Of a stretch of 4,775 nt of DNA, positions 1 to 4,775 are shown one piece after another (the stretch's first letter is position 1; each line of letters opens with the position of its first letter). Where the stretch lies: IMG/VR virus record IMGVR_UViG_3300015188_000046; one strand, given 5' to 3'. The DNA is from a virus (Duplodnaviria; Heunggongvirae; Uroviricota; Caudoviricetes). The notes under the pieces were generated by a model. It did not search any database. It was not told the origin of the DNA and was given only the letters and a program-made list of their open reading frames with translations. The position numbers were made by a program, and so were the translations under genes.

Positions 1-31
1 ACTGGAGTTCAGACGTGTGCTCTTCCGATCT
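1..31. other. Illumina TruSeq-type adapter sequence (technical artefact, not biological)
   Basis: Positions 1-31 read ACTGGAGTTCAGACGTGTGCTCTTCCGATCT, the 3' part of the TruSeq indexed-adapter / read-2 primer site. Identified from memory of the adapter sequence. Confidence 0.9.
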
Positions 32-55
32 GCCGTGCGGCTTAAGGTGGAAAGG

Positions 56-226
56 ATGAACGAGCCTCGTTGTATTGCTCAGTTATTGCGTAACGAAAGC
101 CCAAGGGCGATTGACTTCACCATTACCCACGGTAAGGGGCGTAAGGGAATCATTATCCGCACCAAAAAACAGAGTCCGTTAAAGAAGGCTCTGACCTTTC
201 TGAAAAGCCGGAGGGTCTGGAAATGA
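56..226 (+). CDS. Small hypothetical protein, 5' end uncertain (possibly truncated by the insert boundary); sits where P2 has orf78, immediately upstream of B
   Basis: The frame is open from the adapter junction (32) to TGA 224-226. The first ATG is at 56, preceded by GGTGGA (47-52). The ORF-track start at 17 is a GTG inside the adapter and is not credible. The stop overlaps the next gene's start (ATGA at 223-226). Confidence 0.45.
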   Translation: MNEPRCIAQLLRNESPRAIDFTITHGKGRKGIIIRTKKQSPLKKALTFLKSRRVWK

Positions 227-723
227 CAGTGATGACGCTCAATCTTGTTGAAAAACAGCCAGCAGCTATGCGCCGGATAATTGGTAAGCATCTGGCCGTC
301 CCTCGCTGGCAGGATACATGCGATTATTATAATCAGATGATGGAACGTGAACGGCTAACGGTTTGCTTCCATGCGCAGTTAAAACAGCGTCACGCAACGA
401 TGCGTTTTGAAGAAATGAACGACGTCGAACGTGAACGACTGGTATGTGCAATTGATGAATTGCGTGGCGCATTCTCAAAACGCCGTCAGGTTGGCGCAAG
501 TGAGTATGCATATATTAGTTTTTTAACAGTCAGTCAGCGCCGTACTTTATTTATGCATGCCGGATTGACTGAAAAAGAATTTAACCAGCCATACTGGCGA
601 ATTAATGAAGAATCATGTTACTGGCGTGATGCTTTATTCCGTGCATTACGTGAATTATTCAGTCTGTTTGAGTATGCACCGACAATTCTGACGTCGGTAA
701 AACCAGAGCAATATCTGCATTAA
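223..723 (+). CDS. Probable P2 gene-B-type replication accessory protein (166 aa); assignment by size and operon position only
   Basis: 166-aa ORF whose ATG overlaps the upstream stop (ATGA), ending at TAA 721-723. It is the second gene of an operon that ends in a gpA-like initiator. I recall P2 B as 166 aa but could not align the sequence. Confidence 0.7.
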   Translation: MTVMTLNLVEKQPAAMRRIIGKHLAVPRWQDTCDYYNQMMERERLTVCFHAQLKQRHATMRFEEMNDVERERLVCAIDELRGAFSKRRQVGASEYAYISFLTVSQRRTLFMHAGLTEKEFNQPYWRINEESCYWRDALFRALRELFSLFEYAPTILTSVKPEQYLH

Positions 724-744
724 GTAATTAACCAGAGTTTTTAA

Positions 745-776
745 CGCACTTAATCGTGCGGGGGCTTCTTTTTGCC
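745..776 (+). terminator. Short hairpin followed by a T-rich tract; possible weak attenuator or intrinsic terminator between the B-like gene and the next ORF
   Basis: CGCAC (745-749) pairs with GTGCG (756-760) around a 6-nt loop TTAATC, followed by GGGGCTTCTTTTTGCC (761-776). The stem is only 5 bp and the T-run is not immediately adjacent. Confidence 0.2.
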
Positions 777-787
777 TGGAGAAAGTC

Positions 788-1012
788 ATGCATACAGTTT
801 CTGAAAATCAGTGCGGTAAATACGCATTACTGCTGCAACAGGCCAGAACCGAAGCACAGGCCGACGCAGCGACGCGCTTTTCTTCTCATCTTGACGCCAT
901 GATTCGCCACATCACAAAGGCGGAGTTATCCCGCGTGGAGATAGTCGAGCTGCTCAGTCAGGAGTCGGAAAAATTTCACAATATCGGATTATCTCGCGGG
1001 GAGGTGCTTTGA
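788..1012 (+). CDS. Hypothetical small protein (74 aa), early-operon ORF (P2 orf80 position)
   Basis: ATG at 788 with GGAG (778-781) six nt upstream. Stop TGA 1010-1012 overlaps the next ATG (TGATG). Confidence 0.7.
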
Positions 1013-1314
1013 TGTCCTGTTCTCATTCAGTTGTATTACTGAATAACGCCTTAAAAATCGCTGTTATGAAAAATGGCGATTTGTCTCTTATTCAACTGGG
1101 TCTTGATAAAGAAAAACGCGAAATAACTGAGTCTGTTATCGCGATTTATCAGAACGAATTAAATCTCCTGTCTGATGTGGTCAATTTACTTGTTAAACGC
1201 GCTGTATTTCACAAGCAAATCTCCTCCGTGGATGAACTGACGAAATTAACGACAGAAATTGCCAGCTATTGCGCTGATGAATTTAAAAAACTTAACGACA
1301 AAAGGAGCTGGTAA
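1012..1314 (+). CDS. Hypothetical protein (100 aa), AT-rich relative to its neighbours (P2 orf81 position)
   Basis: ATG at 1012 with GGGGAGGTG (997-1005) upstream. The ORF-track start at 1009 is a TTG one codon earlier. Stop TAA 1312-1314 overlaps the next ATG (TAATG). GC is about 33-37% by eye against about 50% in flanking genes. Confidence 0.7.
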   Translation: MSCSHSVVLLNNALKIAVMKNGDLSLIQLGLDKEKREITESVIAIYQNELNLLSDVVNLLVKRAVFHKQISSVDELTKLTTEIASYCADEFKKLNDKRSW

Positions 1315-1538
1315 TGCCGGACAACGTAGATTTTATTCAGGAACAACAGGCTGAATTACTGGAGCGCCAGATTAACGCGGCAAGAGTAAAACATTGCGGT
1401 GCTTCTGCGCTGGTTTGCGAAGAGTGTGACGCGCCAATACCTGCTGCCCGTCGTGCTGCTTATCCGTCAGCCACGCGTTGTGTTTCCTGTCAGTCAGTCT
1501 TTGAAGCAAAAAACAAACATTACCGGAGAATGGCATGA
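1314..1538 (+). CDS. TraR/DksA-family C4 zinc-finger protein (74 aa)
   Basis: Protein contains CEEC (codons at 1416-1427) and CVSC (1479-1490) separated by 17 residues, the CxxC-x17-CxxC signature of the DksA/TraR zinc-finger family. AAAGGAG (1301-1307) lies six nt upstream of the ATG. Stop overlaps the next start (ATGA at 1535-1538). Confidence 0.85.
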   Translation: MPDNVDFIQEQQAELLERQINAARVKHCGASALVCEECDAPIPAARRAAYPSATRCVSCQSVFEAKNKHYRRMA

Positions 1539-1810
1539 GCATTCGTATTGAAATTGGCGAACGTTATGTCGTTACCAGTGACAGCTTTCAGTTTATTCTC
1601 CACGAGAAAAAGAGAGCGGAAAGCGGTAAAAACGCCGGTCAGGAATGGCTGGCGGTGGTTGGTTATTACCCGAAATTAAGCCAGCTCGTTTCCGGCCTGA
1701 TGCATCACGATATTCTGACCGGAAGCGCAAAGTCTTTTGCTGATTTAAACGCACAGGTTGAGCAACTCAGCAGGCGTTGTTCAGAGGCTTTTGGCTCATA
1801 TGGCCGTTAA
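1535..1810 (+). CDS. Hypothetical protein (91 aa), directly upstream of and overlapping the replication initiator gene (P2 orf83 position)
   Basis: ATG 1535 with GGAG (1525-1528) six nt upstream; stop TAA 1808-1810. Overlaps the ATG-1800 start of the next gene by 11 nt. Confidence 0.75.
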   Translation: MSIRIEIGERYVVTSDSFQFILHEKKRAESGKNAGQEWLAVVGYYPKLSQLVSGLMHHDILTGSAKSFADLNAQVEQLSRRCSEAFGSYGR

Positions 1811-4088
1811 AGCCTCCGGGCGTTTTGTCCCTCCGTCAGCATTTGCCGCAGGCACCGGTAAGACGTTTACCGGTGCTTATGCATGGAACGCGCCACGCGA
1901 GGCTGTCGGGCGCGAAAGACCCCTTACACGTGACGAGATGCGTCAGGTGCAAGGTGTTTTATCCACGATTAACCGCCTGCCTTACTTTTTGCGCTCGCTG
2001 TTTACTTCACGTTATGACTACATCCGGCGCAATAAAAGCCCGGTGCACGGGTTTTATTTCCTCACATCCACTTTTCAGCGTCGTTTATGGCCGCGCATTG
2101 AGCGTGTGAATCAGCGCCATGAAATGAACACCGACGCGTCGTTGCTGTTTCTGGCAGAGCGTGACCACTATGCGCGCCTGCCGGGAATGAATGACAAGGA
2201 GCTGAAAAAGTTTGCTGCCCGTATCTCATCGCAGCTTTTCATGATGTATGAGGAACTCTGCGATGCCTGGGTTGATGCACATGGCGAAAAAGAATCGCTG
2301 TTTACGGATGAGGCGCAGGCTCACCTCTATGGTCATGTTGCTGGCGCTGCACGTGCTTTCAATATTTCCCCGCTCTACTGGAAAAAATACCGTAAAGGAC
2401 AGATGACCACGAGGCAGGCATATTCTGCCATTGCCCGTCTGTTTAACGATGAGTGGTGGACTCATCAGCTCAAAGGCCAGCGTATGCGCTGGCATGAGGC
2501 GTTACTGATTGCTGTCGGGGAGGTGAATAAAGACCGTTCTCCTTATGCCAGTAAACATGCCATTCGTGATGTACGTGCACGCCGCCAGGCAAATCTGGAA
2601 TTTCTTAAATCGTGTGACCTTGAAAACAGGGAAACCGGCGAGCGCATCGACCTTATCAGTAAGGTGATGGGCAGTATTTCTAATCCTGAAATTCGCCGGA
2701 TGGAGCTGATGAACACCATTGCCGGCATTGAGCGTTACGCCGCCGCAGAGGGTGATGTGGGGATGTTTATCACGCTGACCGCGCCGTCAAAGTATCACCC
2801 GACACGTCAAGTCGGAAAAGGCGAAAGTAAAACCGTTCAGCTTAATCACGGCTGGAACGATGAGGCATTTAATCCAAAGGATGCGCAGCGTTATCTCTGC
2901 CGCATCTGGAGCCTGATGCGCACGGCATTCAAGGATAATGATTTACAGGTCTACGGTTTGCGAGTCGTCGAGCCACACCACGACGGAACGCCGCACTGGC
3001 ATATGATGCTTTTTTGTAATCCACGCCAGCGTAACCAGATTATCGAAATCATGCGTCGCTATGCGCTCAAAGAGGATGGTGACGAAAGAGGAGCCGCGCG
3101 AAACCGTTTTCAGGCAAAGCACCTTAACCGGGGCGGTGCTGCGGGATATATCGCGAAATACATCTCAAAAAACATCGATGGCTATGCACTGGATGGTCAG
3201 CTCGATAACGATACCGGCAGGCCGCTGAAAGACACTGCTGCGGCTGTTACCGCATGGGCGTCAACGTGGCGCATCCCGCAATTTAAAACGGTTGGCCTGC
3301 CGACAATGGGAGCTTACCGTGAGCTACGTAAATTGCCTCGCGGCGTCAGCATTGCTGATGAATTTGACGAACGCGTGGAGGCTGCACGCGCCGCCGCAGA
3401 CAGTGGCGATTTTGCGCTTTATATCAGCGCGCAGGGTGGGGCAAATGTCCCGCGCGATTGTCAGACTGTCAGGGTCGCCCGTAGCCCGTCGGATGACGTT
3501 AACGAGTACGAGGAAGAAGTCGAGAGAGTGGTCGGCATTTACGCGCCGCATCTCGGCGCGCGTCATATTCATATCACCAGAACGACGGACTGGCGCATTG
3601 TTCCGAAAGTTCCGGTCGTTGAGCCTTTGACTTTAAAAAGCGGCATCGCCGCGCCTCGGAGTCCTGTCAATAACTGTGGAAAGCCTGCCAGCAGTGATGC
3701 TTCGTTACCGGCTCCCACACCTTCTGAACACGCCGCAGCAGTGCTTAATCTGGTAGATGACGGTGTTATCGAATGGAATGACCCGGAGGTTGTGAGGGCG
3801 CTCAGGGGGGCATTAAAACACGGACTGAGAAGACCAAATCGCCAGCAAAGAAACGGAAGCCCGTTAAAACCACATGAAATAGCGCCATCGGCCAGACTGA
3901 CCCGGTCGGAACGAATGCAAATTACCCGTATCCGCGTTGACCTTGCTCAGAACGGTATCAGGCCTCAGCGATGGGAGATTGAGGCGCTGGCGCGTGGGGC
4001 AACCGTAAATTATGACGGGAAAAAATTCACGTATATGGTTACTAATGAGTGGTTCGGATTTCGAGATGAAGAGTCATTTTTCATGTAA
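1800..4088 (+). CDS. A: Rolling-circle replication initiator endonuclease, P2 gpA family (HUH endonuclease), ~762 aa
   Basis: Long ORF ending TAA 4086-4088. HUH motif P-H-W-H-M-M-L-F (HWH codons at 2994-3002). Paired active-site tyrosines in G-Y-I-A-K-Y-I-S-K (Tyr codons 3147-3149 and 3159-3161), the same Y-x-x-K-Y arrangement as phiX174 gpA. Start placed at the first ATG (1800); the ORF-track start at 1758 is a TTG without a convincing SD. The length matches P2 A (~761 aa) as I recall it. Confidence 0.9.
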   Translation: MAVKASGRFVPPSAFAAGTGKTFTGAYAWNAPREAVGRERPLTRDEMRQVQGVLSTINRLPYFLRSLFTSRYDYIRRNKSPVHGFYFLTSTFQRRLWPRIERVNQRHEMNTDASLLFLAERDHYARLPGMNDKELKKFAARISSQLFMMYEELCDAWVDAHGEKESLFTDEAQAHLYGHVAGAARAFNISPLYWKKYRKGQMTTRQAYSAIARLFNDEWWTHQLKGQRMRWHEALLIAVGEVNKDRSPYASKHAIRDVRARRQANLEFLKSCDLENRETGERIDLISKVMGSISNPEIRRMELMNTIAGIERYAAAEGDVGMFITLTAPSKYHPTRQVGKGESKTVQLNHGWNDEAFNPKDAQRYLCRIWSLMRTAFKDNDLQVYGLRVVEPHHDGTPHWHMMLFCNPRQRNQIIEIMRRYALKEDGDERGAARNRFQAKHLNRGGAAGYIAKYISKNIDGYALDGQLDNDTGRPLKDTAAAVTAWASTWRIPQFKTVGLPTMGAYRELRKLPRGVSIADEFDERVEAARAAADSGDFALYISAQGGANVPRDCQTVRVARSPSDDVNEYEEEVERVVGIYAPHLGARHIHITRTTDWRIVPKVPVVEPLTLKSGIAAPRSPVNNCGKPASSDASLPAPTPSEHAAAVLNLVDDGVIEWNDPEVVRALRGALKHGLRRPNRQQRNGSPLKPHEIAPSARLTRSERMQITRIRVDLAQNGIRPQRWEIEALARGATVNYDGKKFTYMVTNEWFGFRDEESFFM
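3651..3670 (+). other. Candidate replication origin / gpA nick region inside the A coding sequence (tentative)
   Basis: Sequence GCGCCTCGGAGTCCTGTCAA lies about 81% into the A gene. In P2 the origin is inside the 3' part of gene A, and I recall (unverified) a nick-site sequence of this kind. No hairpin or iteron structure is visible here to support it independently. Confidence 0.25.
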
Positions 4089-4101
4089 AACACTTTAAAA
4101 T

Positions 4102-4143
4102 TCAATGCAATGAAGGCATATCCATGTTGCATTGATATGCCTT
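4102..4143 (+). terminator. Two overlapping, mutually exclusive inverted repeats immediately after the gpA stop; possible operon terminator or regulatory structure
   Basis: IR-A: TCAATGCAA (4102-4110) pairs with TTGCATTGA (4127-4135). IR-B: AAGGCATAT (4113-4121) pairs with ATATGCCTT (4135-4143). They are followed by AT-rich sequence, with a T-run (TTGTTTT) about 15 nt downstream. The stems are AT-rich and the U-tract is not canonical. Confidence 0.3.
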
Positions 4144-4358
4144 TAACTTATTATATATTTGTTTTATATGAAAAAATATCATATACAGGGGGAGCAAATA
4201 CAACGGTTTACTTGTTATGATGCAAACATTGGTTAGTTAGTGAGATATATCGCCATCAATTGGGTATTTTTACCCGTGGAAAGTTAACGCTTTCTAACAC
4301 TTACCCCGCGCAACGCCCCTGCCAGCGACAGGAGTCACAGGATCAGGAGGTATGGCGT

Positions 4359-4652
4359 ATGGGTATTCGAACCCTTTGGGCGACCAAGGGTTCGTGGAGC
4401 AGGGGGCTAGTGCTGTTCAATCTCATCCTTATGAGGGCGAACCATAGTGTTGGAGCAGACATACCGTTTGCACACTATGGGCATAAGGAGCAAATCATGA
4501 AGAATGATAAATTAACCAACGAACAGCAGGCGCAGAACAAGTCAAACCTGAAAAAGTGGGCTGGTTACGCTTGGAAATTAATCAAATGGGGTATTAGACT
4601 GTTTGATTTAGTTACTCGAGCACTGGACTACTTCGAAGGGGGGGATGAGTAA
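4359..4652 (+). CDS. Small hypothetical protein: 97 aa from ATG 4359, or 51 aa from in-frame ATG 4497; first ORF after gpA (P2 orf91 position)
   Basis: ATG 4359 has AGGAGG (4345-4350) eight nt upstream. In-frame ATG 4497 has AAGGAG (4485-4490) six nt upstream. Stop TAA 4650-4652. The ORF-track start at 4260 is a TTG with no SD. The C-terminal part is Trp/Lys-rich and amphipathic (KKWAGYAWKLIKWGIRLFDLV). Confidence 0.45.
   Translation: MGIRTLWATKGSWSRGLVLFNLILMRANHSVGADIPFAHYGHKEQIMKNDKLTNEQQAQNKSNLKKWAGYAWKLIKWGIRLFDLVTRALDYFEGGDE
4368..4480 (+). promoter_or_regulatory. Two strong RNA stem-loops (possible structured leader or regulatory RNA element) overlapping the 5' part of the 4359-4652 ORF
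   Basis: SL1: CGAACCCTTTGG (4368-4379) pairs with CCAAGGGTTCG (4384-4394), giving 11 bp with one bulged T, closed by a GCGA (GNRA-type) tetraloop. SL2: perfect 9-bp inverted repeat CCATAGTGT (4442-4450) / ACACTATGG (4472-4480) around a 21-nt loop. SL2 ends 4 nt before the AAGGAG SD of the 4497 start. Confidence 0.3.
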
Positions 4653-4688
4653 TGCGTCCTCCCTAGTTTCAATAGCATGGAGTTGCCT

Positions 4689-4758
4689 ATGTTACATAAA
4701 GCCCTTCGTTTAATAAGGCAATACCATAAAGAATCAATAGTTGAGTTATCTTCATCTT
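4689..4758 (+). CDS. 5' fragment of an unknown gene that continues beyond the insert end (first ~23 codons only)
   Basis: ATG 4689 with GGAG (4679-4682) six nt upstream; an alternative in-frame ATG at 4677 has no SD. The frame stays open to the adapter junction (the apparent TAG at 4758-4760 is created by the adapter). The fragment is AT-rich, about 32% GC by eye. Confidence 0.3.
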
Positions 4759-4775
4759 AGATCGGAAGAGCGTCG
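4759..4775. other. Illumina adapter read-through (technical artefact)
   Basis: AGATCGGAAGAGCGTCG is the start of the TruSeq universal adapter read-through sequence. Confidence 0.9.

What the first reader, a model, noticed from the sequence alone, without database searches (positions are those of the whole stretch)
4368..4480. Two unusually stable stem-loops upstream of a strong internal SD
SL1 is an 11-bp GC-containing stem closed by a GNRA-type tetraloop (GCGA), starting only 10 nt after the ATG at 4359. A hairpin of that strength so close to a start codon would be expected to hinder initiation there. SL2 is a perfect 9-bp inverted repeat ending 4 nt before a near-consensus SD (AAGGAG) and ATG 4497. 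This looks more like a structured leader or small regulatory RNA preceding a 51-aa peptide than ordinary coding sequence.
Basis: seen in the sequence. Interest (0 to 1): 0.5.

Follow-up and report, generated by a model that had tools for sequence, protein, structure and literature searches.

The report
Type VI retron hybrid-RNA leader
The two stem-loops are real, conserved RNA structures in the non-coding front half of a Type VI retron (an anti-phage defence system carried by a P2-like prophage), where they most likely serve as a reverse-transcription template hairpin and as a lock on the ribosome-binding site of a 51-residue toxin; this kind of RNA was described in 2025-2026 preprints, so the finding is correct but not new.

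Summary
Both hairpins exist as described: SL1 4368-4394 (-16.7 kcal/mol, z -3.8) and SL2 4442-4480 (-19.3, z -5.6). They are not coding sequence. Homologues differ by -1, -2 or +5 nt between ATG 4359 and ATG 4497, and variation there shows no codon periodicity.

The window is the early region of a P2-like prophage, and the stretch after gene A is the start of a Type VI retron. In E. coli genomes 99.7-100% identical over 4089-4758 the order is leader, 51-aa small protein (SP), HTH, reverse transcriptase (PADLOC RT_VI 4e-105, HTH_VI 7e-31). That RT, WP_000746343.1, is already listed as Type VI 'Large' lineage, the lineage of Retron-Vpa2.

A covariance model of 4366-4530 finds the element upstream of the RT in about 50 divergent loci: 93.5% of cells paired, 41 of 42 pairs with compensatory changes. 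SL2 caps a helix pairing UCCUUAUG (4426-4433) with CAUAAGGA, the SD region (4482-4489). SL1's loop carries GGGCGAC, repeated as GGGCGAA at 4435-4441. This matches the published 'hyRNA' with its 7-nt direct repeats.

The likely mechanism, inferred by analogy, is that msDNA copied from SL1 pairs with the second repeat and frees the SD. Verdict: real, well supported, already known; interest is modest.

The parts
4216..4221 (+). Tentative -10 hexamer TATGAT with an upstream TG (4213-4214), an extended -10. It would place the transcript start near 4228.
   Evidence: Read from the sequence. The block ACTTGnTATGAT is kept in the enterobacterial relatives, and TGCTAGTAT sits at the same place in Acerihabitans L021. 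The consensus scan did not call it because there is no -35. Inference only.
4240..4246 (+). 5' strand of long-range helix P0 (GUGAGAU), pairing with 4420-4426. It is the candidate canonical a1-like repeat.
   Evidence: Covaries with its partner: GAGAU/AUCUC here, GAGAG/CUCUC in most loci, GGGAU/AUCCC in L042, GGGAG/CUCCC in L053 and L073. Own-partner duplex energy -8.1 against -6.2 for partners from other loci; 0 of 5000 permutations as low.
4250..4254 (+). Conserved 5' motif UCGCC, complementary to the cores of the two direct repeats (GGCGA).
   Evidence: 5/5 pairs with the DR2 core in 16 of 18 lineages. Compensatory variants are UCGUC:GACGA (L042, L073) and UCACU:GGUGA (L053). Own-versus-cross duplex permutation 0.0014 for DR2 and 0.011 for DR1. 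Its function is not known.
4262..4275 (+). Small hairpin SLa (GGGUA-UUUU-UACCC).
   Evidence: MFE. Helix 2: 3 of 5 pairs with changes on both sides, 97.6% of cells paired.
4277..4296 (+). Conserved hairpin SLb (UGGAAAGU-UAAC-GCUUUCUA).
   Evidence: MFE. On a sequence-only alignment of 18 divergent loci, 5 of 7 pairs have compensatory changes, for example GGAAAG/CUUUCU against GGAGGA/UCCUCU.
4302..4365 (+). 64-nt imperfect hairpin with a conserved base and an apex that varies in length and sequence. Candidate main msd stem-loop, the body of the msDNA.
   Evidence: MFE -27.1, z -2.9. The apex carries insertions of about 9-20 nt in the Klebsiella, Citrobacter, Enterobacter, Serratia and Kosakonia loci, and its sequence is variable. 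Assignment as msd is by analogy with the 63-nt stem-loop of Retron-Vpa2 msDNA.
4368..4394 (+). SL1 of the finding: an 11-bp stem (one bulged U) whose loop carries direct repeat 1 (GGGCGAC 4378-4384). Candidate 3'-terminal hairpin of the msd, corresponding to the 5' stem-loop of the msDNA.
   Evidence: -16.7 kcal/mol, z -3.8. All 9 basal pairs have compensatory changes across about 50 loci, 95% of cells paired. Acerihabitans has CGAAGCAUUGG-GCGA-CCAAUGCUUCG, a perfect 11 bp. The loop motif GGCGA is conserved.
4395..4406 (+). 5' strand (X: UGGAGCAGGGGG) of the long-range inverted repeat that pairs with 4659-4671.
   Evidence: MFE. 99.5% of cells paired in 17 close relatives, with G.U to A-U changes. 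In divergent loci both strands change together, for example ACACAGAG/CUCUGUGU in L055 and UAUUCAGGGGU/ACCCCUGAAUA in L073. Own duplex -14.8 against cross -11.9 kcal/mol, 0 of 5000 permutations as low.
4411..4418 (+). 5' strand (UGCUGUUC) of a helix that pairs with SP codons 9-11 (GAACAGCA 4521-4528) and closes the riboregulator arm.
   Evidence: Invariant in close relatives. In about 50 loci 7 of 8 pairs have compensatory changes, 99% of cells paired, for example UGCCAAAA/UUUUGGCA.
4420..4426 (+). 3' strand of P0 (AUCUCAU), the widely conserved 'CUCU' block just before the anti-SD.
   Evidence: See P0 above. P0 crosses the X/Y helix and the 4411-4418/4521-4528 helix, so the two sets are either alternative folds or a pseudoknot. 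This follows from the coordinates.
4426..4433 (+). Anti-SD strand UCCUUAUG, pairing with CAUAAGGA 4482-4489.
   Evidence: MFE. Invariant in close relatives. All 8 pairs have compensatory changes across about 50 loci, 94% of cells paired.
4435..4441 (+). Direct repeat 2 (GGGCGAA), in the internal loop between the anti-SD strand and SL2.
   Evidence: Present in almost all loci. Rare core variants occur in both repeats of the same locus: GACGA in L042, GGUGA in L053 and L067, AGGCGAA in L025. Matches the '7 nt direct repeats' of Zhang et al. 2025.
4442..4480 (+). SL2 of the finding: a 9-bp lower stem plus a 6-bp upper stem, the apical hairpin of the riboregulator.
   Evidence: -19.3 kcal/mol, z -5.6. 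6 of 15 pairs have compensatory changes within 17 close relatives and 15 of 15 across about 50 loci. A 1-nt indel lies in its loop.
4482..4490 (+). SD region: CAUAAGGA, paired with the anti-SD, overlapping AAGGAG at 4485-4490.
4497..4652 (+). SP gene: 51-aa small protein, the presumed toxic effector. Codons 9-11 and the 3' part of the gene also lie in predicted RNA helices.
   Evidence: Annotated as WP_001302990.1. Homologues of 46-56 aa sit at the same position in all loci: a polar N-terminus, a basic cluster, then a hydrophobic or amphipathic helix. AlphaFold2 gives a single helix over residues 2-47, pLDDT 78. No Pfam or PADLOC family. Toxicity is inferred from Vpa2 and Sen3.
4659..4671 (+). 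3' strand (Y: CUCCCU-A-GUUUCA) of the long-range inverted repeat, just after the SP stop codon. The hyRNA 3' end probably lies nearby.
   Evidence: In divergent loci Y is followed by a run of U.
4689..4758 (+). First 23 codons of the Type VI HTH gene, cut off by the end of the insert. The RT gene lies beyond the window.
   Evidence: In the 100%-identical locus L093 the HTH is WP_001310277.1 and the RT is WP_000746343.1. PADLOC gives HTH_VI 6.7e-31 and RT_VI 4.1e-105.

Best explanation
The interval 4368-4480 is the centre of the non-coding part of a Type VI retron 'hybrid RNA' (hyRNA). The retron sits in the gpA-gpQ defence hotspot of a P2-like prophage.

One transcript, roughly 4228 to about 4680, carries three things:
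- an msr-msd-like domain (5' motif, two small hairpins, a 64-nt variable hairpin, SL1);
- a riboregulator (anti-SD 4426-4433 paired to the SD region 4482-4489, capped by SL2);
- the 51-aa SP toxin gene.

The transcript is closed by an inverted repeat, 4395-4406 with 4659-4671.

Shown here: the structures exist and are conserved by covariation on the + strand. The region is not coding. The locus is a Type VI retron of the 'Large' (Vpa2) lineage. The SD is base-paired. A 6-7 nt repeat occurs in the SL1 loop and again next to the anti-SD.

Inferred by analogy with Retron-Vpa2: in uninfected cells SP is not translated because its SD (and start codon) are sequestered, and the HTH holds reverse transcription down. 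Phage recombination or anti-RecBCD proteins let msDNA accumulate. The msDNA is the DNA copy of about 4302-4394, and its 5' hairpin is the copy of SL1. The loop of that hairpin (TCGCCC) pairs with repeat 2 (GGGCGA, 4435-4440), opens the anti-SD:SD helix, SP is made, and the infected cell stops growing.
For: Context: in genomes 99.7-100% identical over 4089-4758, gene A is followed by about 400 nt of non-coding DNA, then the 51-aa ORF, an HTH gene and an RT. PADLOC gives RT_VI 4e-105 and HTH_VI 7e-31. RT WP_000746343.1 is a named leaf 'Large_WP_000746343.1' in the Type VI tree of Garcia-Rodriguez et al. 2026, the lineage that holds Retron-Vpa2. The gpA-gpQ region of P2-like phages is a known defence hotspot that includes retrons (PMC9122126).

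Structure: 4245-4700 folds with z -5.2 into a 5' domain and two further arms closed by the X/Y repeat. This matches the published three-arm description with the RBS and AUG in stem-loops. In 17 close relatives 91.5% of cells are paired, against about 41% when partners are slid, and 28 pairs have compensatory changes. Model R1 finds full-length + strand matches upstream of the RT in about 50 of 71 loci. On that alignment 93.5% of cells are paired against about 40% slid, and 41 of 42 pairs have compensatory changes. MFE folds of Colwellia, Cellvibrio and Hafnia loci, computed independently, give the same layout with different sequences. G.U cells number 93 against 28 A.C cells, which points to + strand RNA.

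Repeats: both are conserved and vary in concert, as described by Zhang et al. 2025.

msDNA: the DNA complement of 4300-4396 folds into a 27-nt and a 64-nt hairpin, z -3.95. Vpa2 msDNA is a 23-nt 5' stem-loop plus a 63-nt stem-loop.

Not coding.
Against: Nothing here shows transcription, msDNA, SP toxicity or defence for this locus. All of that is transferred from Retron-Vpa2 and Eco12.

Whether Retron-Eco12 is this locus could not be established, because no sequence or accession is in the held text.

The related Retron-Sen3, from another Type VI lineage, makes ssDNA and SP constitutively and is controlled post-translationally. The Vpa2 mechanism is therefore not universal within the type.

The msd boundaries and the priming site are inferred. 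No conserved branching G was identified. A second covarying long-range helix (P0, 4240-4246/4420-4426) would, if it is the true a1/a2, put the start of the template at about 4419 rather than 4394.

In this clade repeat 1 is partly inside two apical G-C pairs, and the two repeats share only 6 contiguous nt.

The alignment was fitted to the model's structure, which inflates pair counts. Searches are free of that bias.

Rfam has no match.
Confidence: 0.85

Rival explanations
1. Same Type VI retron RNA, but regulated like Retron-Sen3. SP would be translated constitutively and neutralised post-translationally by the HTH antitoxin. SL1 and SL2 would serve mainly as RT recognition or template elements and RNA scaffold, not as an msDNA-operated translational switch.
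For: Retron-Sen3, a Type VI retron from an enterobacterium, works this way although its SP RBS is also predicted to sit in a stem. This locus likewise has an HTH gene immediately downstream of SP.
Against: The RT belongs to the 'Large' lineage with Vpa2, not to cl2075. The SP is 51 aa like Vpa2's 55, not 79 as in Sen3. The anti-SD:SD helix covaries in all 8 pairs. The two direct repeats that underlie the Vpa2 model are conserved and change in concert. The E. coli Type VI retron tested (Eco12) made no detectable msDNA at baseline, like Vpa2.
Confidence: 0.12
2. The stretch is ordinary coding sequence: a 97-aa (ATG 4359) or 130-aa (TTG 4260) protein whose C-terminal 51 residues are the annotated ORF. 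On this view the hairpins are incidental.
For: The frame is open from 4260 to 4652 in this window. Two database entries call longer products of 71 and 80 aa.
Against: Length between the two ATGs differs by -1, -2 and +5 nt in homologues whose nucleotides are otherwise nearly invariant. There is no third-position excess. The nucleotides of 4366-4440 are more conserved than the SP gene itself. No Pfam hit for the 97-aa product. RefSeq annotates 51 aa. SD and ATG at 4497 are conserved in position in about 50 loci.
Confidence: 0.01
3. The inverted repeats act at the DNA level as operators for the downstream HTH protein or another repressor, not as RNA structure.
For: An HTH protein is encoded next door. 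SL2 is a perfect 9-bp palindrome separated by 21 nt.
Against: Stem sequences are free to vary as long as pairing is kept, the opposite of a protein-binding site. G.U pairs are tolerated far more than A.C, 93 against 28. In distant loci a different palindrome (TTCGC...GCGAA over the -35 region) is the more plausible operator.
Confidence: 0.02
4. A minus-strand antisense small RNA (type I toxin-antitoxin style) or a tRNA-like or attachment-site remnant.
For: The minus strand also folds (z -2.4; SL1 complement -15.6). SL1 superficially resembles a tRNA T-arm.
Against: No tRNA or tmRNA. No Rfam family on either strand. No promoter-like or terminator-like site on the minus strand. All model hits except one weak spurious match (E 0.39) are on the RT strand. 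G.U versus A.C asymmetry favours the + strand. SL2 is weaker on the minus strand, -14.9 against -19.3.
Confidence: 0.01

Closest known systems
Retron-Vpa2 hybrid RNA (hyRNA), Type VI retron of Vibrio parahaemolyticus (Zhang et al., bioRxiv 10.1101/2025.10.22.683967)
   Same: - Operon order ncRNA-SP-HTH-RT.
- One structured transcript of about 450-470 nt with an msr-msd arm, an arm holding the SP RBS and AUG in stem-loops, and an arm made of the SP coding sequence.
- Inverted repeats tie the 3' end back to the first arm.
- Conserved 7-nt direct repeats in an msd loop and in a riboregulator loop.
- The predicted msDNA is a short 5' hairpin plus a hairpin of about 63 nt.
- Same RT lineage ('Large').
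   Different: The primary sequence is different and the host is E. coli in a P2-like prophage. Nothing has been measured for this locus. Here the two repeats share 6 of 7 nt (GGGCGAC / GGGCGAA), and repeat 1 is partly closed by two G-C pairs. I could not compare nucleotide by nucleotide because the Vpa2 sequence and figures are not in the held text.
Retron-Eco12 (E. coli Type VI retron tested by Zhang et al. 2025)
   Same: E. coli Type VI retron, described as related to Vpa2. It defends against lambda-vir from its native promoter and makes no detectable msDNA at baseline.
   Different: Identity with this locus is unknown. No accession or sequence was available.
Retron-Sen3 / cl2075 Type VI ncRNA (Garcia-Rodriguez et al., bioRxiv 10.64898/2026.04.27.721009)
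   Same: - SP-HTH-RT order.
- Structured ncRNA within about 280 nt upstream of SP, with a small conserved stem-loop near the 5' end and a long hairpin with a variable centre.
- SP RBS inside a stem.
[quoted passage not shown]
- Two alternative conformations proposed.
   Different: - A different RT/SP lineage (cl2075 against 'Large').
- SP is 79 aa against 51.
- The internal hairpin is 166 nt against 64 nt.
- ssDNA and SP are constitutive, and control is post-translational by the HTH with RecBCD surveillance.
Canonical retron msr-msd RNA (e.g. Retron-Eco1/Ec86)
   Same: A structured RNA next to a retron RT, with short conserved hairpins followed by a long variable template hairpin, flanked by complementary repeats.
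   Different: The RNA continues into an mRNA for the effector. msDNA is proposed to activate rather than neutralise the toxin. The repeat adjacent to the template pairs with the transcript's 3' end, after a coding sequence. No conserved branching G was found. No Rfam match.
Trans-activated translational riboregulators (DsrA/RprA-rpoS type anti-antisense activation; synthetic toehold switches)
   Same: The SD is locked in a hairpin and opened by a trans-acting nucleic acid that pairs with an exposed loop next to the anti-SD strand. This rests on established knowledge, not on a test here.
   Different: The proposed activator is single-stranded DNA made by a reverse transcriptase from the same transcript, not an sRNA.

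Membership tests
Type VI retron (Mestre et al. 2020 classification) | Reverse transcriptase of retron clade 3 / Type VI. | tested here: met
   The RT lies outside the window, but in the locus that is 100% identical over 4089-4758 (L093) and the 99.7%-identical locus (L001) it is WP_000746343.1. PADLOC RT_VI E 4.1e-105, the next best family 5e-45. The same accession is a Type VI 'Large' leaf in a published tree.
Type VI retron (Mestre et al. 2020 classification) | Small Cro/C1-type HTH protein (cluster 2_1, 91-110 aa) upstream of and overlapping the RT gene. | tested here: met
   102-aa HTH, PADLOC HTH_VI 6.7e-31. It overlaps the RT start. Its first 23 codons are at window 4689-4758.
Type VI retron (Mestre et al. 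2020 classification) | Small accessory protein (SP) gene upstream of the HTH. | tested here: met
   51-aa ORF 4497-4652 with SD. Homologues of 46-56 aa at the same place in about 45 loci share a basic cluster and a hydrophobic helix. It is not one of the named SP clusters; the lineage is 'Large'.
Type VI retron hyRNA (Zhang et al. 2025) | Structured transcript with SP RBS and start codon in stem-loops, supported by covariation. | tested here: met
   The anti-SD:SD helix has 8 of 8 pairs with compensatory changes and SL2 has 15 of 15. MFE z -5.2. The start-codon hairpin 4494-4508 is predicted only.
Type VI retron hyRNA (Zhang et al. 2025) | Inverted repeats joining the transcript's 3' end (after SP) to the first arm. 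| tested here: met
   4395-4406 with 4659-4671. The strands co-evolve across lineages.
Type VI retron hyRNA (Zhang et al. 2025) | Conserved 7-nt direct repeats, one in an msd loop and one in a riboregulator loop. | tested here: met
   GGGCGAC 4378-4384 in the SL1 loop and GGGCGAA 4435-4441. Conserved, with concerted variants. That these are the same repeats as in the paper's figure is inferred from its text.
Type VI retron hyRNA (Zhang et al. 2025) | Abundant contiguous RNA covering msr-msd plus SP; RT-dependent msDNA that appears on triggering; msDNA-dependent SP translation; anti-phage defence. | not testable with these tools
   Needs RNA-seq, PAGE or Spacer-seq, reporter assays and plaque assays.
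Canonical retron ncRNA (msr-msd) | a1/a2 repeats flanking msr-msd, with a conserved branching G at the 3' end of a1. | tested here: inconclusive
   Two covarying long-range helices are candidates: P0 4240-4246/4420-4426 and X/Y 4395-4406/4659-4671. No invariant G next to either was found.
Canonical retron ncRNA (msr-msd) | Match to a curated RNA family. | tested here: not met
   No Rfam 15 match on either strand at E <= 1.
Protein-coding gene (97/130-aa ORF) | Reading frame and codon-position pattern conserved in homologues. | tested here: not met
   Frame-breaking length differences and flat variability across codon positions; no family hit.

The most novel reading that the evidence does not exclude
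Beyond the published model, the RNA may contain a built-in copy of the msDNA's active loop. The conserved 5' motif UCGCC (4250-4254) has the same sequence as the DNA complement of repeat 1 and is complementary to both repeats. It co-varies with them in three independent lineages (UCGUC:GACGA in two, UCACU:GGUGA in one).

Two covarying long-range helices also cannot both form in one nested secondary structure (they are alternative folds or a pseudoknot): P0, 4240-4246/4420-4426, a canonical a1/a2-like closure; and X/Y, 4395-4406/4659-4671, together with 4411-4418/4521-4528, the hyRNA closure.

The transcript would then be a two-state switch. In one fold it is a retron template. In the other it is a locked mRNA. 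The 5' motif would occupy repeat 2 (or repeat 1) until msDNA displaces it. I found no mention of the 5' motif or its complementarity in the text of either preprint, but their figures were not available to me.
Probability: 0.3. Interest if true: 0.5.

Novelty: already known. Interest (0 to 1): 0.3.

Why it matters
Type VI retrons invert the usual retron logic: reverse-transcribed DNA switches a toxin on instead of keeping it off. This window shows that the same RNA architecture sits in P2-like prophages found in about 100 of 5,426 complete E. coli genomes, including O157:H7 strains, and in Klebsiella, Citrobacter, Enterobacter and Serratia prophages.

For annotation, about 400 nt after P2 gene A that is currently blank or occasionally mis-called as an ORF can be labelled as retron hyRNA. 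The covarying helices and repeats mapped here give concrete mutations for testing the msDNA-riboregulator model in a native E. coli system.

For the scan itself, this is a true positive: a sequence-only reader picked out a real functional RNA.

Tried and rejected
- Rfam 15 at E <= 1 on the whole window gave no match.
- ARAGORN found no tRNA or tmRNA, so the T-arm-like look of SL1 is coincidental.
- The promoter/terminator scan found only one promoter-like site, at 4132-4159 in P2-specific sequence. It found no terminator. The extended -10 at 4213-4221 is my own reading.
- The local hairpin GGGGGGA/UCCUCCC around the SP stop codon is rejected. Its variable position is a Gly third-codon base (G/U/A/C) with no compensating change.
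- An apparent 8-nt direct repeat UGGAGCAG (4395-4402 and 4451-4458) is not conserved in relatives, so I treat it as chance.
- Pairing of GCCCCUGCC (4314-4322) with 4396-4407 is rejected. The G-to-A and C-to-U changes in the two segments are not correlated across relatives.
- A column-wise pair count for X/Y on a sequence-only MAFFT alignment failed because the registers slipped. I replaced it with own-versus-cross duplex energies.
- I tried to establish whether this locus is Retron-Eco12, and to obtain the Vpa2 msDNA or hyRNA sequence. Neither is in the held text or supplements.
- Pfam and PADLOC on the SP found no family.
Full report
**1. The observation**

- SL1 is CGAACCCUU-U-GG / GCGA / CC-AAGGGUUCG at 4368-4394.
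- SL2 is CCAUAGUGU (4442-4450) paired with ACACUAUGG (4472-4480), with a further 6-bp helix inside (4455-4460/4466-4471).
- SL2 ends 4 nt before AAGGAG (4485-4490), and an ATG lies at 4497.

Folded alone, SL1 gives -16.7 kcal/mol (z -3.8) and SL2 gives -19.3 (z -5.6). No shuffle out of 200 folds as well as either. The transcript-sized interval 4245-4700 gives z -5.2.

**2. Context**

The window is the early region of a P2-like prophage. Gene A (replication endonuclease) ends at 4088.

The stretch 4089-4758 occurs in 100 of 5,426 complete E. coli genomes. In the 100%-identical locus (LWY24) and the 99.7%-identical O157:H7 locus, the order after gene A is:
- about 400 nt with no annotated gene;
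- a 51-aa hypothetical protein (window 4497-4652);
- an HTH protein (starting at window 4689);
- a 'reverse transcriptase family protein'.

PADLOC assigns the last two to RT_VI (4e-105) and HTH_VI (7e-31). That RT, WP_000746343.1, is a labelled leaf ('Large_') of the Type VI retron tree in Garcia-Rodriguez et al. 2026. This is the lineage that contains Retron-Vpa2.

The gpA-gpQ interval of P2-like phages is a known defence hotspot that includes retrons (PMC9122126). The same module is found in other places:
- Peduovirus P22H1 (96%) and Klebsiella phages (87%);
- P2-like prophages of Klebsiella, Citrobacter, Enterobacter, Serratia and Kosakonia;
- outside any P2 context, next to yeiP in E. coli C5.

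**3. Not coding**

The open frame from 4260 or 4359 into the 51-aa ORF is an accident of this sequence.
- In homologues the distance between the 4359-equivalent and the SP ATG differs by -1 (Klebsiella, Citrobacter, Enterobacter, Serratia, Kosakonia), -2 (Acerihabitans) or +5 nt (E. coli C5).
- Variable columns are spread evenly over codon positions (13/15/17 of 46). In the SP gene they are 28/24/37 of 51.
- The nucleotides of 4366-4440 are nearly invariant across genera, while the SP gene downstream varies freely.
- The 97-aa product hits no Pfam family.

**4. RNA structure and covariation**

The MFE fold of 4245-4700 gives the following elements:
- two small hairpins (4262-4275, 4277-4296);
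- a 64-nt imperfect hairpin (4302-4365);
- SL1;
- a long-range helix X/Y (4395-4406 with 4659-4671, just after the SP stop);
- a helix joining 4411-4418 to SP codons 9-11 (4521-4528);
- a helix pairing UCCUUAUG (4426-4433) with CAUAAGGA (4482-4489, overlapping the SD), capped by SL2;
- a small hairpin over the AUG;
- an arm made of the rest of the SP gene.

On 17 close relatives this structure keeps 91.5% of cells paired, against about 41% when partners are slid. 28 pairs have changes on both sides. SL2 has six such pairs.

In Acerihabitans, SL1 reads CGAAGCAUUGG-GCGA-CCAAUGCUUCG, a perfect 11-bp stem with three pairs exchanged.

I then gathered more distant loci with RT alignments. I built a covariance model of 4366-4530 and searched 71 loci. 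About 50 gave full-length hits, all but one weak spurious match (E 0.39) on the RT strand and at the expected distance upstream of the RT.

On the resulting alignment 93.5% of cells pair, against about 40% slid. 41 of 42 pairs show compensatory changes. This includes all 8 pairs of the anti-SD:SD helix and 7 of 8 pairs of the helix into the SP gene. That alignment is fitted to the model, which inflates the counts. Three bias-free checks agree with it:
- independent MFE folds of Colwellia, Cellvibrio and Hafnia loci reproduce the layout with unrelated sequences;
- a sequence-only alignment supports hairpin 4277-4296;
- X/Y co-evolution shows up as own-partner duplexes of -14.8 against -11.9 kcal/mol for partners from other loci, with 0 of 5000 permutations as low.

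G.U cells (93) far outnumber A.C cells (28), so the structure is read on the + strand.

**5. Repeats**

The SL1 loop holds GGGCGAC (4378-4384). GGGCGAA recurs at 4435-4441, in the internal loop between the anti-SD strand and SL2. Both are conserved in nearly all loci. Rare variants of the core occur in both copies of the same locus: GACGA in L042, GGUGA in L053 and L067, AGGCGAA in L025.

**6. Comparison with the literature**

Zhang et al. (bioRxiv 2025) describe for Retron-Vpa2 a hybrid RNA of about 470 nt with these features:
- an msr-msd arm;
- an arm with two stem-loops holding the SP RBS and AUG;
- an arm made of the SP coding sequence;
- inverted repeats tying the 3' end to the first arm;
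- 7-nt direct repeats in an msd loop and a riboregulator loop.

They show that SP is toxic and translationally repressed. msDNA (63 nt, or 86 nt with a 23-nt 5' stem-loop) appears only on triggering or when the HTH is mutated. Full-length msDNA supplied in trans switches SP translation on, and this requires the 5' stem-loop.

The window reproduces each architectural element. The DNA complement of 4300-4396 folds into a 27-nt and a 64-nt hairpin (z -3.95), which parallels the 23 + 63 nt of Vpa2.

On that basis I assign:
- SL1 as the msd hairpin that becomes the msDNA 5' stem-loop;
- 4302-4365 as the msDNA body;
- SL2 as the cap of the riboregulator.

These assignments and the mechanism are inferences by analogy. 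Nothing about expression or function of this locus was measured.

Retron-Sen3, from another Type VI lineage, shows that a post-translational mode also exists. I keep that as the main rival.

**7. Open points**

The priming site is unresolved. X/Y abuts SL1, as an a2 would. A second covarying helix, P0 (GUGAGAU 4240-4246 with AUCUCAU 4420-4426), looks like a canonical a1/a2. Its variants are GAGAG/CUCUC, GGGAU/AUCCC and GGGAG/CUCCC. P0 crosses X/Y, so the RNA probably has two folds or a pseudoknot.

A conserved 5' motif UCGCC (4250-4254) is complementary to both repeats and co-varies with them. I found no mention of this in the text of either preprint.

**8. Verdict**

The element belongs to an already described kind, and this locus's RT is already catalogued as Type VI. 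Interest is modest. The value lies in annotation and in a ready-made set of testable helices in a native E. coli system.

Noticed in passing
window 1-31 and 4759-4775: Both ends of the window are Illumina adapter sequence. ACTGGAGTTCAGACGTGTGCTCTTCCGATCT is at 1-31 and AGATCGGAAGAGCGTCG is at 4759-4775. The core AGATCGGAAGAGC is matched on the minus strand at 19-31 and on the plus strand at 4759-4771, with 0 expected by chance. The biological insert is therefore 32-4758. The ORFs listed at 17-226 and the end of the HTH gene are artefactually bounded.
   Followed up: yes
window 4250-4254 versus 4378-4384 and 4435-4441: A conserved 5' motif UCGCC is complementary to the core of both direct repeats (GGCGA). 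It has the same sequence as the DNA copy of repeat 1. It co-varies with the repeats: UCGUC:GACGA in L042 and L073, UCACU:GGUGA in L053. Own-versus-cross duplex permutation 0.0014. It may be an internal decoy or a pseudoknot partner.
   Followed up: partly
window 4240-4246/4420-4426 versus 4395-4406/4659-4671 and 4411-4418/4521-4528: Two sets of covarying long-range helices cross each other. The RNA therefore either switches between a 'retron ncRNA' fold (P0 closed) and a 'hyRNA' fold (X/Y closed), or it forms a pseudoknot. U4426 is shared between P0 and the anti-SD helix.
   Followed up: partly
window 4521-4528 (SP codons 9-11) and 4529-4658: Part of the SP coding sequence is constrained by RNA pairing. 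GAACAGCA pairs with 4411-4418 and co-varies with it across about 50 loci, so the peptide there changes with the helix (NEQQ here; FWQ or YWQ elsewhere). GCAGG after it is almost invariant.
   Followed up: partly
L025, L044, L048, L053, L055, L059, L060, L064, L068, L073 (about 60-120 nt upstream of the GAGAG motif): Distant Type VI loci carry an inverted repeat of the form TTCGC(N)...GCGAA around a TTGACA -35 box. This is a plausible operator for the HTH protein. The window's clade lacks it and seems to use an extended -10 (TGnTATGAT, 4213-4221) instead.
   Followed up: no
downstream of the SP stop in L022, L025/L046, L053, L056, L060, L061, L067 and others: In divergent loci the 3' strand of the X/Y repeat is followed directly by a run of 5-8 U. 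The long-range helix may therefore double as a terminator-like 3' end of the hyRNA. The window has only UUU (4667-4669).
   Followed up: no
E. coli records NZ_CP054556.1, NZ_CP047010.1, NZ_CP065203.1, NZ_CM166344.1, NZ_CP048605.1 and others (match at 2290-2959): Many 'complete' E. coli chromosomes are rotated so that coordinate 1 is the start of this prophage's gene A (replication endonuclease, 2289 nt). Presumably a start-fixing tool took it for a replication initiator.
   Followed up: no
L002 (E. coli C5) and L024 (Enterobacteriaceae UBA5654): The same retron module sits outside any P2 prophage, between a YkgJ-family gene and a hypothetical gene near yeiP. Similarity to the window starts at about 4226-4241, which marks the left edge of the mobile module.
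   Followed up: partly
L007-L014 (Klebsiella, Citrobacter, Enterobacter P2-like prophages), locus coordinates about 1619-2075: In these prophages a 146-aa DinI-family gene lies between gene A and the retron. It is absent from the E. coli version.
   Followed up: no
L011, L014, L020 (RT gene): In three loci the RT gene is called shorter than the usual 316 aa: 147 aa in L011 and L014, and 298 aa in L020. This suggests frameshifted or decaying copies of the retron in some hosts.
   Followed up: no
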